Shown here one piece after another: positions 6,410-12,400 of a stretch of DNA of 64,000 bases (within the stretch, counting starts at the first letter, position 1; the number at the start of each line of letters is the position of its first letter). The DNA is from an uncultured Microbacterium sp. (GTDB taxonomy: Bacteria > Actinomycetota > Actinomycetes > Actinomycetales > Microbacteriaceae), in assembly GCA_964406225.1 (NCBI GenBank), contig CAYOQY010000001.1, forward strand, positions 25,382 through 89,381, given 5' to 3'. The notes below the pieces were generated by a model, which worked only from the letters and a program-made list of their open reading frames with translations, ran no database searches and was not told the DNA's origin. Both the position numbers and the translations under genes were made by a program.

Positions 6410-7933
6410 ATGGCCGCCACCGACATGACCCCGCGCACCGATAGCGTGCCGCTCCCGTCCTCACCGTCGCCCGTCCCCGCGCTCAGCCGCTCCGACAGCC
6501 GTGTCATCTGGCTGCTGCTCGGGGCCGCGTTCGTCGCGATCCTCAACGAGACGACGATGGGTGTGGCGATCCCCCATCTGATCGACGACCTGAGCATCAC
6601 CGCGGTGGCCGCACAGTGGCTCACGACGGCGTTCATGCTCACGATGGCCGTGGTGATCCCGATCTCCGGCTTCCTTCTGCAGCGGTTCACCACACGCGCG
6701 ATGTTCATCACGGCGATGAGCCTCTTCTCGCTCGGGACGCTGATCGCGTTCCTCTCCCCCGGCTTCCCTCTGCTGGTCGTCGCGCGCGTCGTGCAGGCCT
6801 CGGGCACCGCGATCATGATGCCCCTCCTGATGACCACGATCATGAACACGGTGCCTCCGCAGATCCGCGGGCGCATGATGGGCCGCGTCAGCGTCGTCAT
6901 CTCTCTGGCACCCGCGATCGGCCCGAGCCTGTCGGGCCTTCTGCTCGACACGGTCGGCTGGCGCTGGATCTTCGGCATCATCCTCCCGCTCGCCCTCGTC
7001 GCCCTCGGCGTCGGAGCGCGATGGATCCACAACCTCGGCGAGCCCACCGACGCGCCGATCGACGTCCTGTCGGTCATCCTTTCGGCCTTCGGCTTCGGCG
7101 GACTCGTCTTCGGTCTCAGCCAGATCGGCGGCGCCTCGCACGGCGGCGGGTCCGACGCCGCCGCAGCGGAGGCCATGTCGACCGCGACTCTCGTGGCCTC
7201 GTTCGTGGTCGGCGGTGTCGCGCTCGGCCTGTTCATCTGGCGCCAGCTGCGGCTGCAGCGCGCCGACCGTGCCCTGCTCGATCTCCGCGTGTTCCGCTCG
7301 CTCAACTTCAGCCTCGCCATCACGCAGATGGCGGTCATGTCACTCGCGTTCTTCGGCGCGATCACGATCATCCCGCTGTACATGCAGAACGTGCTCGACG
7401 TCTCGGCGCTCGTGACCGGTCTCGTCGTGCTCCCGGGTGCCCTGGTCATGGGCCTCGCGGGTCCCGTGATCGGTCGTGTCTACGACCGGTTCGGCACGCG
7501 CATCCTGCTCGTGCCGGGCGCGCTCGTCGTGAGCGCCCTGCTCTGGACTTTCACGACCTTCGACCAGAACACCCCCATCTGGGTCGTCGCGATCGCGCAG
7601 ACCGTTCTCTCACTCGGTCTGGCACTCTCCTTCACCCCCCTCTTCACCGCGTCGCTGGCTTCGCTGCAGCCGCGCTTCTACTCGTACGGCTCGGCGATCG
7701 TCGGAACGGTGCAACAGGTGGCGGGCGCCGCCGGAATCGCGCTCATGGTGACGGTCTTCGCGTCGGTCGGCGCCTCCGCGGCGAGTGCGGGGCTCGACGA
7801 GTTCGCCGCCGGCGCCGAAGGAACACAGGCCGCATTCACCATTGCCGCGATCCTGTCGCTGCCGCTGATCGTGGGCGCGTTCTTCATCCGCAAGCCCGCC
7901 GACCAGCAGGGACTCCCACCCGTCGCGGACTGA
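6410..7933 (+). CDS. DHA2 (EmrB/QacA, LmrB-like) MFS efflux transporter
   Basis: FVAILNETTM, QWLTTAFML, ARVVQASG, APAIGP; about 14 TM segments; GAGGAG RBS before ATG 6410. Confidence 0.92.
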   Translation: MAATDMTPRTDSVPLPSSPSPVPALSRSDSRVIWLLLGAAFVAILNETTMGVAIPHLIDDLSITAVAAQWLTTAFMLTMAVVIPISGFLLQRFTTRAMFITAMSLFSLGTLIAFLSPGFPLLVVARVVQASGTAIMMPLLMTTIMNTVPPQIRGRMMGRVSVVISLAPAIGPSLSGLLLDTVGWRWIFGIILPLALVALGVGARWIHNLGEPTDAPIDVLSVILSAFGFGGLVFGLSQIGGASHGGGSDAAAAEAMSTATLVASFVVGGVALGLFIWRQLRLQRADRALLDLRVFRSLNFSLAITQMAVMSLAFFGAITIIPLYMQNVLDVSALVTGLVVLPGALVMGLAGPVIGRVYDRFGTRILLVPGALVVSALLWTFTTFDQNTPIWVVAIAQTVLSLGLALSFTPLFTASLASLQPRFYSYGSAIVGTVQQVAGAAGIALMVTVFASVGASAASAGLDEFAAGAEGTQAAFTIAAILSLPLIVGAFFIRKPADQQGLPPVAD

Positions 7934-7964
7934 CGTATCAGGCTCTTGGGACTTGAGTGTGGTC

Positions 7965-8708
7965 TTCGGCCCTGCGTTAAGCGAGTTCCTCGGAACCAGC
8001 CACAACCTGTCGCCGGCGAGCATCACCCGGCTGACCAAGGACTGGCAAGACGAGGGGGCCGCGTTCAACAAGCGGTCCCTGGCCGAGACCGACTACGTGT
8101 ACGCGCGGGTCGACGGCATCCACCTCAAGGTTCGCCTCGAGCAGGACGCGGTGTGCCTGCTGGTGATGATCGGCGTGCGTGCCGACGGCACCAAGGAGCT
8201 GATCGCCCTCGAGGACGGGCACCGCGAGTCCACGCAGTCCTGGGCCGACCTGCTCCGTTCGGCCAAGCGCCGCGGGATGCGCGCGCCGGTGCTCGCGGTC
8301 GGTGACGGGGCGCTCGGGTTCTGGGCAGCGCTGCGCACCGTGTTCCCCGAGACCCGGGAGCTGCGGTGCTGGTTCCACAAGATCGATAACGTCCTCAACG
8401 CGTTGCCGAAATCGGCTCAGCCGGGCGCGAAGACGGCGCTGGCGGAGATCTGGAACGCCGAGGACAAGGACCACGCCAAGAAAGCTGCGAAGGCGTTCGC
8501 CGCCGACTACGGCGCGAAGTGGCCCAAGGCGGTCGCGAAGATCACCGACGACCTCGAGGTACTCCTGGCCTTCTACGACTACCCGGCCGAGCACTGGGTC
8601 CACCTGCGCGCGACGAACCCGATCGAGTCCACCTTCGCCACCGTTCGGCTGCGGCAGCGGATCACCAAGGGACCCGGCTCCCGCGCCGCGGGGATCGCGA
8701 TGGCGTTG
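7965..8708 (+). pseudogene. IS256-family transposase internal fragment (truncated at both ends)
   Basis: YVYARVDGIHLKVR, IGVRADGTKEL, VGDGALGFW, RCWFHK, HLRATNPIESTF, TKGPGSRAAGIAMA; N-terminus and C-terminal tail absent. Confidence 0.9.
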
Positions 8709-9228
8709 CTGCCGTTCGGGTTGTCCAGGTCGGTCTGAGTCGCGCCCGAGCAGTAGACCGCCGTGAAGCCACCGAAGAAGTCTAAGTCGGGCGAGGCGTA
8801 GGTCTGCTCGGCGTTTGAGGAGGTCGAGCGCCGGCACCGGTTGTGCGAGTCATCGCCCCAGTTGCGCGGGTCCCAGTCGTCACGGTTGTCGTAGTTCGTG
8901 CCATGGTGGTAGTCCCCCGCGCCCTCTCCCGAGGCGAGACTGTGACCGAGGGCCACGTAGTCACCGCTCAGCGCCTTCTCGAGCGCCGTCTGCACGCTCG
9001 CGGCGGTGTCCTCACACCCTTCGCCGAGGAAGATCCGGCACACGGCGTTCGCCGTGTGCGTGGCCAGGTCACCCTGGACGATGGCGAACAGCACCGCGGC
9101 GACGACGAGCGCAGCAGCCGCGATGATCCCGCCGTACTCGAGCCCGGCGGTACCCCGCTCCGTGGTGTGCCCCCTCTTGGCACACCACGGCCGCGCACTG
9201 CCGCATCGCGGGGCCGCTCACCAGGCAT
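8706..9228 (-). pseudogene. Flp/TadE pilin-like N-terminus fused to SGNH/GDSL hydrolase, frameshifted and 3' truncated
   Basis: ERG|TAGLEYGGIIAAAALVVAAVLFAIV (begins at 9160); YVALGHSLASGEG (block I-like), CRRS, CSGAT; no in-frame start codon; joined to IS256 remnant. Confidence 0.65.
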
Positions 9229-9237
9229 GTCCCGACG

Positions 9238-9535
9238 CTAGGGATCGCCGGTGTCCAGGACCTTGCCGAGGACGACCCCGACCCACGCGAGCACCGTTGC
9301 GGACAGGGCCGCCCACGGAGTCAGTCGCCGGAGCCGCTCGATGACGAGCATCACGGCCGCTGCCGCGCCGAGCAGGAGCGAGTAGCGACCGACGAGGTAC
9401 TCGGCGCTGGCGTCGTCGGTGGCCAGGAAGTACACGTCGAGCCACACGATCGGCAGCGCGACGAGCGCGAGCACCAACCCCCCACGTGACGAGCCCGGCC
9501 CGCGGATGCGGCGACGGGTGCTCCTGCGCGGTCAT
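9238..9535 (-). pseudogene. Small 3-TM membrane protein with +1 frameshift in G6 run
   Basis: TAGAAT 7 nt before ATG 9535 (MTAQEHP); removing one base of the run at 9478-9483 joins it to LVLALVALPIVW...DP*, giving 98 aa. Confidence 0.55.
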
Positions 9536-9738
9536 GAGCCGGATTCTATGGCGGAGGGTCACTCCCTGGCCCGGCGGACGAATCTGCGATCAGGGGCTGT
9601 GGGAATGCCTCCGGCCTCTCACAACCCCTCTGCACCGGACCTGAGGTTCGACGGCCACGTGGCTTAGGCTGGACGGGACGATCATCCAGGCCCGGCCGCC
9701 GAGAGTGCTGCCGCAGTCACCCGGGGAGGAACCACACC

Positions 9739-10803
9739 GTGACGACCGTTCGCTCCGGCCTGCGCTCGATCGGGGCCGCCACCGCCGTGGCTGCCCTGCT
9801 CGTCGCGGGATCACCCGCCGCATCCGGCACGGCCGCAGCCGCCGACGAGATCCCGATTCTCGGCCAGACCCTCACGATGGGGACGGTCACCGCGGGACCT
9901 CCTGCGGTGGTCACGGTGCACGGGGTCCAACGGGTCGACAACGCCACGATCGTCTACTGGTCACTCGGCATCCCCGAAGGTTCGCAGGCGGAGTTCGCCG
10001 CGTCCTACTTGGGCCCGTCCACGCTGTTGTTCAGGTCCGAGCGAACGGGTATCAACCAGTCGGACGTGACACTGACCGACGGGGCCGCTGGTCTCACCTA
10101 CCGCCCGATGGAACCGGCCGGCAAGTTCGTGACCTGCGTGTGCGGCCCGTCCACCACGATGACTGATCTCACTCCGGGGCAGGCTCAGGTCATCTGGTCC
10201 GCCGTGGCCCCACTTCCTGCGGGCGTCGCGACGGTCGACGTCACCATCGCGGAGCAGGTCATCCCGAACGTCCCCGTGGGAGACGGCCCCCTGCTGCCCT
10301 TGGCGGAGAACCAGGAGGCGCCGTTCGTCCTCGGCATGGGGTGGCCCGAGCCCGACCCCGAGCTATTGGCCACGGCGCGCACGTCGCAGCCCGCGGCCTT
10401 CGAGCTCACCCAGCGCGTGTCCAACATCGAGCAGAGCGTCACGATCTCCACCGGCACGGTGTCCTTGGCCGCGGACGTGCTGTTCGCCAAGGACTCCGCG
10501 ACCCTGACGGAGGAGAGCACGAAGACGGTCGCCGATGCCGCCGCGCAACTCAAGGCAACCGAGACCGGCAAGGCCCTGACCGTGACGGGTCACGCGGACT
10601 CCGACGGCTCGAACTCCTACAACCAGTCATTGTCGGAGGAGCGGGCGAAGGCCGTCGCGGCGGCGCTCACCAACGCCCTCGGCGGTGAGTACACCATCAC
10701 GGCCGTCGGCAAGGGCGAGACCGAACCGATCGCGTCGAACGAGACCACTGCGGGCAAGGCCAAGAACCGCCGAGTCAGCATCACCTACACCGAAGGACAG
10801 TGA
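9739..10803 (+). CDS. Secreted OmpA-like (peptidoglycan-binding) domain protein
   Basis: Signal peptide; C-terminal DVLFAKDSATL, VTGHADSDG, YNQSLSEERAKAV, GKGETEP, NRRVSI; RBS GGAGGA. Confidence 0.9.
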   Translation: MTTVRSGLRSIGAATAVAALLVAGSPAASGTAAAADEIPILGQTLTMGTVTAGPPAVVTVHGVQRVDNATIVYWSLGIPEGSQAEFAASYLGPSTLLFRSERTGINQSDVTLTDGAAGLTYRPMEPAGKFVTCVCGPSTTMTDLTPGQAQVIWSAVAPLPAGVATVDVTIAEQVIPNVPVGDGPLLPLAENQEAPFVLGMGWPEPDPELLATARTSQPAAFELTQRVSNIEQSVTISTGTVSLAADVLFAKDSATLTEESTKTVADAAAQLKATETGKALTVTGHADSDGSNSYNQSLSEERAKAVAAALTNALGGEYTITAVGKGETEPIASNETTAGKAKNRRVSITYTEGQ

Positions 10804-11381
10804 CCGTGGCCCAGCCCCCCCGTCGTCCCCGCCTCACCCTGGCGATCCTCGGTGTCGTGTCCGTCGTGGCGCTGTCGTCCTGCACGGGGGACGACCCCGA
10901 GCCCTCGGCGAGTCCGACCGGATCCGCGTCGTCGAGTGCGTCCACGACGCCTTCGACGCCGCTCAGCGACCAGAGTGCTCTCGTGCTCGGTGCGCAGCTG
11001 CCCCCGGTGGCTGGCAGCTCGACCGGAGAGGTGGCCGGCACGCCGGCCACCCTCAACGTGGCCTCTGTCGTCGCCACGAAGGGCGGCAGCGTCCTGACGT
11101 TCTGGCACACTGGGCCGGAGAAGATGTTGGTCAACCGAGGAGACCTCTCCTGGGAGGCCCAACCCGTGCTGGTCGACGTCGCCGAGCAGAAGGTCTACGA
11201 GCCCGTCACGTTCGTGGATGAGCGGGGGAACACCCGCTGCCTGTGCACCGACGCGGCGTACATTCGTGCGGTGCCTCAACCGCGCACGATCTTCTTCCCC
11301 GAACTGCCCGACACGGTCACCACCGTCGAGGTTCGCCAGGCCGGCTTCGACAAGTCGATCAGCGTCCCGGTCACCCGCTGA
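10800..11381 (+). CDS. Putative lipoprotein with CLC motif
   Basis: Lipobox-like ALSSC, Ser/Pro/Thr linker, YEPV..RCLCTD; GTGA coupling to the OmpA-domain gene. Confidence 0.8.
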   Translation: MTVAQPPRRPRLTLAILGVVSVVALSSCTGDDPEPSASPTGSASSSASTTPSTPLSDQSALVLGAQLPPVAGSSTGEVAGTPATLNVASVVATKGGSVLTFWHTGPEKMLVNRGDLSWEAQPVLVDVAEQKVYEPVTFVDERGNTRCLCTDAAYIRAVPQPRTIFFPELPDTVTTVEVRQAGFDKSISVPVTR

Positions 11382-11404
11382 CCCGGCAGACACGGAATCG
11401 GCCC

Positions 11405-11546
11405 CTGGTGCGTGTCTCCTAACCGTTATCGGGTGGCGAGTCCGCGCCATTGTGTGTCTTCGTTGAAGCCGCGTTCGACGACGTTGCGGCCCTTGTAGTC
11501 CTGGACGTCGTAGCCCACCGGTCGGCCACCGCGGGATCCGCGGCGC
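11405..11546 (-). mobile_element. IS5-family remnant (transposase C-terminus plus degenerate right end)
   Basis: Minus strand reads [39 protein letters not shown]; end sequence TTAGGAGACACG. Confidence 0.8.
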
Positions 11547-11707
11547 TGAATCGCCCCGGGTCTCGTGGAGGGTCTGATTCCCCGAGAGGATGATGACTAT
11601 GTCAGCACCGAGGAAGTATCCGCCGGAGCTTCGTGAGCGTGCGATGCGGCTTGTTGCCGAGGCCCGGAAGGAGGATCCGGAGCTGTCGTTGAACCAGGCC
11701 GTGATCC
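11547..11707 (+). mobile_element. IS3-family remnant (left IR and start of orfA)
   Basis: TGAATCGCCCCGG terminus at 11547; MSAPRKYPPELRERAMRLVAEAR; cut at the element's right IR. Confidence 0.85.
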
Positions 11708-11830
11708 CAAGAGCCACGTATCACGACGAGCCCACGCCCCCTCGTCGCAGAGGACGCCGCGTGCCAGGATGGGCGACGGATGCCGGTCCGGCGGCGTCCC
11801 GACGGCGCCGCGGTGCCGGTGAGGAGCGCC

Positions 11831-12400
11831 ATGATCATCGCAACACCCGACCCCGAAGAGGCCGAGGGCCACGCCGCGCAGATGTACGCCGACGATCTGG
11901 ATGCCGACGGGTTCGTGTACGCCCATACCCGGGCGATGGCGGTCAACCCGAAAGCGCACGAAGCCTTCGTCGCACTCGTGGGCGCGATCGTGCCCTCGAT
12001 CGGCCTGCGAACGTACGAGTTGGCGACGCTCGGAGCGGCTCGCGGCGTGTCATCGCCGCACTGCCTGCTCGCGCATGGGCGCAAGTCGCTCCGCGAAGGG
12101 ATCCTCGACGATGAGCAGCTCACGCGCATCGCCCGCGGTGAACGAGCCGAGGGGCTGACCGACGCCGATCGCGCGGTCCTCCGGTTTGCCGAGCGCATGT
12201 CGACGGATGCCGCCGCAATGACCGACGATGACGCGCAGAGCCTGCGCGATGCGGGCTTCAGCGACCGGCAGATCGTCGACATCGCTCTGGCCGCCGGTGC
12301 CCGCAACTACTTCAGCCGGGTTCTCCGAGCGCTCGCCGTACCGGTCGATGACGTCCCGGGCCTGACCGCGAGCGTGGCCGGCGCGCTCAGTGGTGGATGA
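11831..12400 (+). CDS. AhpD/carboxymuconolactone decarboxylase-like protein
   Basis: GAGGAG RBS; YELATL..SSPHCLLAHG; LRDAGFSDRQIVDI. Confidence 0.8.
   Translation: MIIATPDPEEAEGHAAQMYADDLDADGFVYAHTRAMAVNPKAHEAFVALVGAIVPSIGLRTYELATLGAARGVSSPHCLLAHGRKSLREGILDDEQLTRIARGERAEGLTDADRAVLRFAERMSTDAAAMTDDDAQSLRDAGFSDRQIVDIALAAGARNYFSRVLRALAVPVDDVPGLTASVAGALSGG

What the first reader, a model, noticed from the sequence alone, without database searches (positions are those of the whole stretch)
7933..11723. 3,775-bp transposase-less cargo element with ISL3-like ends and an intact 8-bp target-site duplication
Seen: exact 11-bp terminal inverted repeats (GGCTCTTGGGA 7941-7951; TCCCAAGAGCC 11705-11715), flanked by identical ACGTATCA (7933-7940, 11716-11723), inserted at the last base of the MFS stop codon. 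Known: ISL3 elements have GG-starting IRs (GGCTCT.. in several actinobacterial members) and typically 8-bp duplications. Seen: no ISL3 transposase inside, only pieces of three other IS families plus passenger genes. Inference: either a minimal non-autonomous gene carrier mobilised in trans, or a larger element that collapsed in place while keeping both ends. Gene-level annotation would not show it.
Basis: partly seen in the sequence, partly recalled or inferred. Interest (0 to 1): 0.8.

Follow-up and report, generated by a model that had tools for sequence, protein, structure and literature searches.

The report
Stranded transposon relic with remodelled passenger
This 3.8-kb stretch is a real insertion of DNA from another bacterial family, made by an ISL3-type jumping gene whose body is gone and whose right end is cut short, so it is likely stuck; the jumping-gene part is ordinary, but one passenger, a predicted cell-wall protein, has become much more acidic, which likely reflects adaptation to the new host.

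Summary
Observation confirmed. Relatives lack the insert; one has a single ACGTATCA after the MFS stop. The left end is 22 bp, identical to ISL3 ends in Austwickia and Humibacillus. The right end keeps only 11 bp and lacks positions 12-22, which match between both ends in all 9 TSD-flanked copies recovered from 30 loci. The cargo is 95-96% identical to chromosomal Tad-pilus-region DNA of another family, with no IS beside it. Five deletion joints lie inside, three with 3-4 bp overlaps. Best reading (0.6): an ISL3 composite transposon that jumped here, then lost both IS bodies, as ISApl1 does around mcr-1; now likely immobile. A cassette still mobilised in trans gets 0.2. The scan noted transposase-less ISL3 cassettes before on other DNA. 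Unexpected, found post hoc: the intact OmpA-domain passenger has 18 private amino-acid changes, net charge -12 (1 of 20,000 neutral simulations), sparing conserved columns and moving towards the host's acidic exported proteins; broken neighbours show no such shift, and the partner lipoprotein shifts +4.

The parts
6410..7933 (+). host MFS transporter gene (left flank); stop codon overlaps the duplication by one base
   Evidence: Pfam MFS_1; adjacent to the CMD-family gene in relatives
7933..7940 (+). left copy of the 8-bp target duplication ACGTATCA
   Evidence: single copy at the empty site of G018; top 1.6% of window 8-mers on a matrix of 71 flanks of ISL3-type ends
7941..7962 (+). ISL3 terminal inverted repeat, 22 bp, essentially whole
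   Evidence: 22/22 identical to ends in L026, L027, L029, L030; 21/22 to both ends of L106
7964..8707 (+). internal fragment of an IS256 transposase gene, missing about 130 codons at the start, about 45 at the end and both IS ends
   Evidence: NF033543; 96% to L045, 93% to L046
8704..9228 (-). 5' remnant of a 373-aa SGNH/GDSL hydrolase gene of the donor; cut at 8704 (4-bp overlap CGTT with IS256) and frameshifted near 9170
   Evidence: donor gene in L165 matches PF13472
9246..9562 (-). remnant of a 153-aa membrane-protein gene; 203-218 bp lost at 9246-9248 (3-bp overlap CGC) and an extra base near 9483
9739..10803 (+). intact 354-aa OmpA-domain protein gene with donor upstream region; 18 private amino-acid changes, net charge -12
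   Evidence: PF00691; 93-94% to P0123 and P0125
10800..11381 (+). intact 193-aa predicted lipoprotein gene, overlapping the OmpA stop
   Evidence: 93-94% to donor orthologues; no Pfam family; lipoprotein call rests on its lipobox-like N-terminus
11405..11546 (-). degenerate 3' remnant of an IS5-family element with its right end and an internal loss of about 65 bp
   Evidence: NF033580 E 5.6e-5; homologues L034, L035, L067, L072
11547..11707 (+). left end and first 39 codons of orfA of an IS3-family element inserted into the IS5 remnant
   Evidence: 95% to L031, start exactly at the IS end; family via L069
11705..11715 (-). truncated ISL3 terminal repeat, 11 bp (8 unique, 3 shared with IS3 orfA)
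11716..11723 (+). right copy of the target duplication
   Evidence: bridged by contigs in X1 and X4
11831..12400 (+). host carboxymuconolactone-decarboxylase-family gene (right flank)
   Evidence: PF02627; follows the MFS gene in 9 relative loci

Best explanation
The stretch is an ISL3-made insertion of foreign chromosomal DNA, most likely the wreck of a composite transposon that jumped here whole and then lost both ISL3 bodies by short-overlap deletions, which would leave it immobile. Shown: insertion at an empty site with an 8-bp duplication; ISL3-type ends of 22 and 11 bp; a 2.7-kb cargo from a Tad-pilus-associated chromosomal region of another actinobacterial family; IS256, IS5 and IS3 debris at the cargo borders; five deletion joints. 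Inferred: (1) two ISL3 ends captured a donor segment already littered with other IS; (2) an ISL3 transposase then carried by the unit inserted it after the MFS stop, probably through a circle as in other ISL3; (3) deletions removed the IS bodies, the right one cutting into the inverted repeat after insertion, since such an end would probably not be recognised; (4) the OmpA gene stayed intact and has likely been under selection since (core spared, surface charge lowered towards the host's exported proteins), while the broken neighbours drift.
For: Empty site: of 19 relative loci, 9 held both flanking genes, all 9 without an insert (82-335 bp between the protein matches); G018 has one exact ACGTATCA after the MFS stop, three others 6-7 of 8. 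Ends found through the transposase, not the repeat pattern: 9 of 30 loci gave TSD-flanked copies (two are the same insertion), all with 8-bp TSD and the two ends agreeing at 9-11 of 11 positions 12-22; matrix score for positions 12-22 was 7.8 to 14.8 for these 18 ends, 14.6 for the window's left end, -6.6 for its right end. Donor: 7 of 401 genomes in the family of G425 match the cargo at E<=1e-30, G751 at 96% and G739 at 95%; 0 of 4 donor loci carry ISL3, IS256, IS3 or IS5; Tad and T2SSF genes lie beside it. ISL3 ends of this type ring in 23 of 301 genomes of that family against 7 of 400 of the host genus (slightly different patterns). Joints with overlaps CGTT (8704-8707), CGC (9246-9248), TCC (11705-11707). 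The IS256, IS5 and IS3 pieces have no other copy in the assembly and sit on one unbranched contig at flank depth, so they probably arrived with the cargo. Precedent: all mcr-1 regions with one or no ISApl1 arose by deletion from Tn6330, some keeping 42 or 90 bp of the IS end (PMC5821093, passages and one section read), at 2-4 bp microhomologies (bioRxiv 2023.06.07.543989, passages).
Against: No ancestral, longer form was found, so the composite stage is inferred. Two separate deletions must each stop within 22 and 11 bp of an end. The test for hidden ISL3 target sites near the two outer joints was inconclusive. The left joint and the IS5 joint show no clear overlap. ISApl1 deletions are close to one IS length and belong to another family. 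The minimal end an ISL3 transposase needs was not tested and I found no paper giving it. The host assembly is 74% complete, so a transposase could be missing from it. For step 4: the charge test is post hoc, the two donors are not the true parent, and the lipoprotein moves the other way (+4, not significant).
Confidence: 0.6

Rival explanations
1. A minimal non-autonomous cassette (MIC-like): the unit was trimmed in the donor and inserted here in its present form by an ISL3 transposase working in trans, which tolerates an 11-bp end.
For: Both tips and both duplication copies are exact; at the 2.6% private divergence of the cargo this has probability about 0.27 anyway, so it is weak. No relic of ISL3 body on either side. 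MICs moved in trans are described for other families (PMC4133298, passages), and earlier notes of this scan report transposase-less ISL3 cassettes (unchecked).
Against: Right end lacks positions 12-22 present in 18 of 18 ends of TSD-flanked copies. Single copy; no ISL3 transposase in the assembly. No second site in 72,556 plasmids, viral contigs, metagenome or genome contig scans of the left end, or the 20 runs listed, where the 4 that hold half or more are one study.
Confidence: 0.2
2. One ordinary ISL3 copy inserted first; foreign IS and cargo later landed inside it; deletions then removed the ISL3 interior.
For: L106 is an ISL3 with ends 21/22 identical to the left end, a second IS nested inside and its 8-bp duplication kept. 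Short ISL3 stubs without transposase occur (L108, L112, L115, L097). Both window ends share the same first 11 bp, as do both ends of the single element in L027.
Against: The cargo is bounded by three different IS families, none with two ends, so nothing but ISL3 could have carried it; none of them has another copy in the host assembly.
Confidence: 0.15
3. Chance repeats around a segment that entered by end-joining or illegitimate recombination, or an assembly chimera.
For: The bare IR-plus-duplication pattern arises about 3 times per genome by chance; the host has Ku; internal joints are of the short-overlap type.
Against: 22-bp identity to real ISL3 ends exactly at the border, single target at the empty site, ISL3-like target composition, one contig across both ends, identical joints in an independent study.
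Confidence: 0.05

Closest known systems
ISL3-family insertion sequences, actinobacterial GGCTCT-ended group (NF033550; IS1096 and IS31831 are recalled as named members, not tested here)
   Same: Terminal repeat sequence, 8-bp duplication, target with A/T core; 25-bp IR and AT-rich 8-bp duplications are also reported for the fosB ISL3-like transposon (PMC5559704, passages).
   Different: No transposase; right repeat cut to 11 bp; 3.8 kb of foreign DNA instead of a 1.45-kb IS.
Decay products of the composite transposon Tn6330 (ISApl1-mcr-1-ISApl1)
   Same: Passenger stranded at the insertion site after loss of flanking IS, short-overlap joints, short IS-end remnants (PMC5821093; bioRxiv 2023.06.07.543989).
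   Different: IS30 family with 2-bp duplication; the parent composite is known there and only inferred here; remnants there are 42 or 90 bp or absent, here 22 and 11 bp on both sides.
Mobile insertion cassettes (MIC231) and TIME-derived non-autonomous elements
   Same: IS-type ends and a duplication around passenger genes, no transposase (PMC4133298, passages).
   Different: Those have two full ends and shown mobility in trans; this has one truncated end, one copy and no helper found.
Passenger-carrying ISL3 elements and composites (ISPpu12, fosB-ISL3 transposon, Tn14751)
   Same: ISL3 ends carrying unrelated genes. Tn14751 carries 17.4 kb of chromosomal DNA (title and name seen in PMC8058222; its ISL3 membership is recalled).
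   Different: They keep an ISL3 transposase.

Membership tests
ISL3-family IS (autonomous) | ISL3 transposase (PF01610 / NF033550) between the ends | tested here: not met
ISL3-family IS (autonomous) | ISL3-type terminal repeat, left end | tested here: met
   22/22 identity to ends of ISL3 elements
ISL3-family IS (autonomous) | ISL3-type terminal repeat of 22-25 bp, right end | tested here: not met
   only 11 bp; score -6.6 against 7.8-14.8
ISL3-family IS (autonomous) | 8-bp duplication of a target with A/T core | tested here: met
Mobile insertion cassette / non-autonomous ISL3 derivative | passenger genes and no cognate transposase between IS ends with a duplication | tested here: met
Mobile insertion cassette / non-autonomous ISL3 derivative | two complete ends | tested here: not met
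Mobile insertion cassette / non-autonomous ISL3 derivative | same unit at several sites | tested here: not met
   not found in those searched; searches are samples
Mobile insertion cassette / non-autonomous ISL3 derivative | moved in trans by a cognate transposase | not testable with these tools
   needs an assay; no helper in the 74%-complete assembly
Decayed composite transposon (Tn6330-like loss of flanking IS) | outer ends and duplication kept, IS bodies gone, short-overlap joints | tested here: met
   3-bp overlap at the right joint, none clear at the left
Decayed composite transposon (Tn6330-like loss of flanking IS) | parent with two full IS copies around the same cargo | tested here: inconclusive
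   not found in 401 donor-family genomes or in plasmids
Decayed composite transposon (Tn6330-like loss of flanking IS) | deletions of about one IS length next to ancestral inner target sites | tested here: inconclusive
   target-like 8-mers near the joints no better than chance

The most novel reading that the evidence does not exclude
After an ISL3 transposon delivered it across families and decayed into a lock, the OmpA-domain passenger was domesticated and rewired by positive selection for surface charge (five lysines and one arginine lost, six glutamates or aspartates gained at new or swapped sites), converging on the strongly acidic exported proteome of its new host. This would be protein-level amelioration caught at 4-5% DNA divergence, with dead neighbours in the same insert as built-in neutral controls.
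Probability: 0.45. Interest if true: 0.65.

Novelty: new member of a known kind. Interest (0 to 1): 0.4.

Why it matters
As a mobile element this is ordinary: a stranded ISL3 relic, of a kind described for other IS families and noted before in this scan. It does show cross-family transfer of chromosomal, non-resistance genes by ISL3 with the donor region identified, and suggests that the loss of flanking IS seen around mcr-1 also happens with ISL3. The part worth following is the passenger: if the charge shift is adaptive, it gives a small, directly testable case of how an exported protein is retuned after horizontal transfer, and it points to envelope charge as a barrier that transferred surface proteins must adapt to.

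Tried and rejected
Scan of 401 genus genomes for the 19-bp left end with 2 mismatches: 4 other hits, at the level of the reversed control; 3 were read and are chance matches, L024 was not read. First chance control spoiled by runs of N, redone. Hidden inner target sites: inconclusive. Neutral-fossil reading of the whole cargo: pN/pS near 1 suggested it (window 29 non-synonymous/9 synonymous against 14/26 on donor branches, Fisher p 0.0003), but the direction of the OmpA changes and the sparing of conserved columns argue against it for OmpA; it stands for the broken genes and possibly the lipoprotein. Special error-prone mutation process: adjacent substitutions are in excess on the window branch (10 against 1.8) but also on a donor branch (8 against 1.5), so rejected. 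Runs with small shares (X6, X12, X13, X17) hold only IS256 relatives or donor-like cargo, no ends; uncovered ends in X5 prove nothing. Promoter scan found none. No structure or complex prediction was obtained. PMC6350997 and PMC12056078 (passages) were not useful. Paper searches for a described ISL3 relic with two short stubs and for charge adaptation of transferred exported proteins listed nothing that fits; the library is open-access only, ISfinder was not available and supplements were not read, so this is no proof of absence.
Full report
Observation. The pattern alone is not rare: 5 such arrangements within 20 kb in this genome, 15 in 5 shuffled genome-equivalents, none of the shuffled ones starting GGCTC. 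The host is a 70% GC actinobacterium; I take it for Microbacterium from gene content and genus size, but no call names it.

It is a real insertion. Of 19 loci from relatives, 9 held both the MFS gene and the CMD-family gene, and all 9 had them 82-335 bp apart with no insert; the other 10 held only the MFS gene. G018 reads one exact ACGTATCA straight after the MFS stop (1 match, 0.01 expected), and three others have 6-7 of the 8 bases. In run X1, possibly the source, one 4,538-bp contig without differences spans both ends at the depth of its flanks; X4 (same study) bridges the right end; X5 (another study) has identical contigs across the joints at 8704 and at the lipoprotein-IS5 border but covers neither end.

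The ends are ISL3, and unequal. A scan of species genomes for the first 19 bases found 4 loci in Humibacillus and Austwickia, identical over 22 bp and belonging to degraded ISL3 elements; a metagenome contig gave a fifth. To avoid circularity I took 30 loci found by transposase similarity and asked only for a 5-base tip and a flanking repeat: 9 gave TSD-flanked copies (two the same insertion), every duplication 8 bp, the two ends of each agreeing at 9-11 of positions 12-22; the other 21 were contig-cut, partial or without duplication. On a matrix of positions 12-22 these 18 ends scored 7.8 to 14.8, the window's left end 14.6, its right end -6.6. So the right end is a stub; its inner three bases could be IS3 sequence. 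The duplication fits the group's taste for an A/T core: top 1.6% of window 8-mers on a matrix of 71 flanks of pattern-found ends. No ISL3 transposase was found in the host assembly.

The inside. From left: an internal IS256 transposase piece (96% to L045); the cut and frameshifted start of an SGNH hydrolase; a cut membrane-protein gene; intact OmpA-domain and lipoprotein genes; an IS5 right-end remnant; an IS3 left end inserted into it and cut after 39 codons. Bases 8704-11402 are one donor segment: 7 of 401 genomes in the family of G425 (which includes the Humibacillus and Austwickia genomes, and not the host genus) match it, G751 at 96% and G739 at 95%. The closest named proteins are from a Dermatophilaceae bin (94%) and Ornithinibacter aureus (93%). 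In donors it is chromosomal DNA beside Tad-pilus genes, often in tandem, with no IS in 4 of 4 loci. Five joints are deletions inside genes or repeats; three have overlaps of 4, 3 and 3 bases. The IS pieces have no other copy in the assembly.

Mechanism. Nothing inside has two ends, so ISL3 is the only candidate carrier. Its ends are commoner in the donor family (23 of 301 genomes) than in the host genus (7 of 400, near the control level). I therefore infer a composite ISL3 transposon built on donor DNA, inserted here, then stripped. That a half-length repeat is not recognised is general IS knowledge, untested for ISL3; if so, the right deletion came after insertion and the unit is stuck. The closest described process is the decay of Tn6330, where ISApl1 copies are lost and some products keep 42 or 90 bp of an end (PMC5821093; passages and section 10 read), at 2-4 bp microhomologies; a review lists ISL3 among circle-forming families open to the same route (bioRxiv 2023.06.07.543989; passages and first fifth read). 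Against: no parent was found, and the search for ancestral inner targets was inconclusive. L106, an ISL3 with near-identical ends, a nested IS and its duplication intact, supports the nested variant. I give 0.6 to composite-then-collapse, 0.2 to a cassette moved as it is, 0.15 to nesting, 0.05 to chance or artefact.

The passenger. Against two donors, the window branch has 29 non-synonymous and 9 synonymous changes in OmpA plus lipoprotein, the donor branches 14 and 26 (Fisher p 0.0003). This first looked like neutral decay. But OmpA's 18 private amino-acid changes lower its net charge by 12; 1 of 20,000 simulations with the insert's own mutation spectrum reached that (mean +0.8). I noticed the pattern before testing it, so the value is post hoc. 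None of the 18 hits the 56 columns conserved in 90% of 42 homologues (3.2 expected, p 0.027; mean conservation p 0.053). None of the 14 listed members of its 90% cluster carries the acidic residues (15 of 93 members were listed). Broken neighbours shift +3, 0 and 0. By a crude ORF and lipobox screen, host lipoproteins are far more acidic (median -12.7 per 100 residues, n=55) than those in 1.6 of 3.7 Mb of donor G739 (-5.7, n=15; p 1.5e-6), while cytoplasmic proteins differ little (-3.0 against -2.6); mature OmpA has moved from about -0.5 to -5.0. Against adaptation: the lipoprotein shifts +4 (not significant), the overall substitution count in OmpA does not exceed the neutral rate, absence of stops is unremarkable (chance of a stop 0.3-0.4), the true parent is unsampled, and expression is unknown. 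What the protein does is inferred only: a peptidoglycan-binding anchor by its domain, pilus-associated by donor context; the host has a TadB/C-type pair and one other OmpA-domain gene.

Verdict. Confirmed feature; ISL3 relic rather than a demonstrated minimal carrier; a new member of a known kind. Earlier notes of this scan describe transposase-less ISL3 cassettes in other genomes (unchecked), none on this DNA. Interest 0.4, carried mostly by the passenger's charge shift.

Noticed in passing
L106:6622-9859 (G451:C7): ISL3 with ends 21/22 identical to the window's left end, a second IS of about 1.65 kb nested inside, a 126-bp tandem duplication of its left end, and the 8-bp duplication CCTTTTCC kept.
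   Followed up: partly
L112:3655-3840, L108:4208-4277, L115:3292, L097:1517, L124:3335: ISL3-type ends with no transposase behind them: an internally deleted copy of about 185 bp, a 23-bp end followed directly by another IS, and orphan stubs.
   Followed up: partly
window 7900-12386: Run X1 holds a relative about 94% identical in the MFS gene and 4-5 times more abundant whose contigs stop at 7900 and resume at 12386, so it seems to lack both the insert and the CMD-family gene; similar joints appear in X5 with short sides.
   Followed up: no
window 11724-11747: A hairpin (CGACGAG...CTCGTCG) follows the target site; the insert separates it from the MFS stop, so MFS transcription may read into the insert.
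   Followed up: no
L076, L165, L078 and run X17: The OmpA-lipoprotein pair with a neighbouring pilin-like-start gene occurs in tandem copies beside Tad genes and a two-component pair in donor-family genomes; function unstudied here.
   Followed up: partly
G000 whole assembly: Predicted host lipoproteins are very acidic and lysine-poor (median net -12.7 per 100 residues, 0.9% Lys, n=55) while cytoplasmic proteins are not.
   Followed up: partly
window 10800-11381: The lipoprotein gained three arginines while OmpA gained acids; possibly compensatory if the two bind, untested.
   Followed up: no
G000:C9:43574-43804: A 147-bp unit flagged by the repeat scan is a tandem repeat with a strong hairpin and relatives at several places in the genome, resembling degenerate tRNA-associated repeats rather than an IS.
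   Followed up: no
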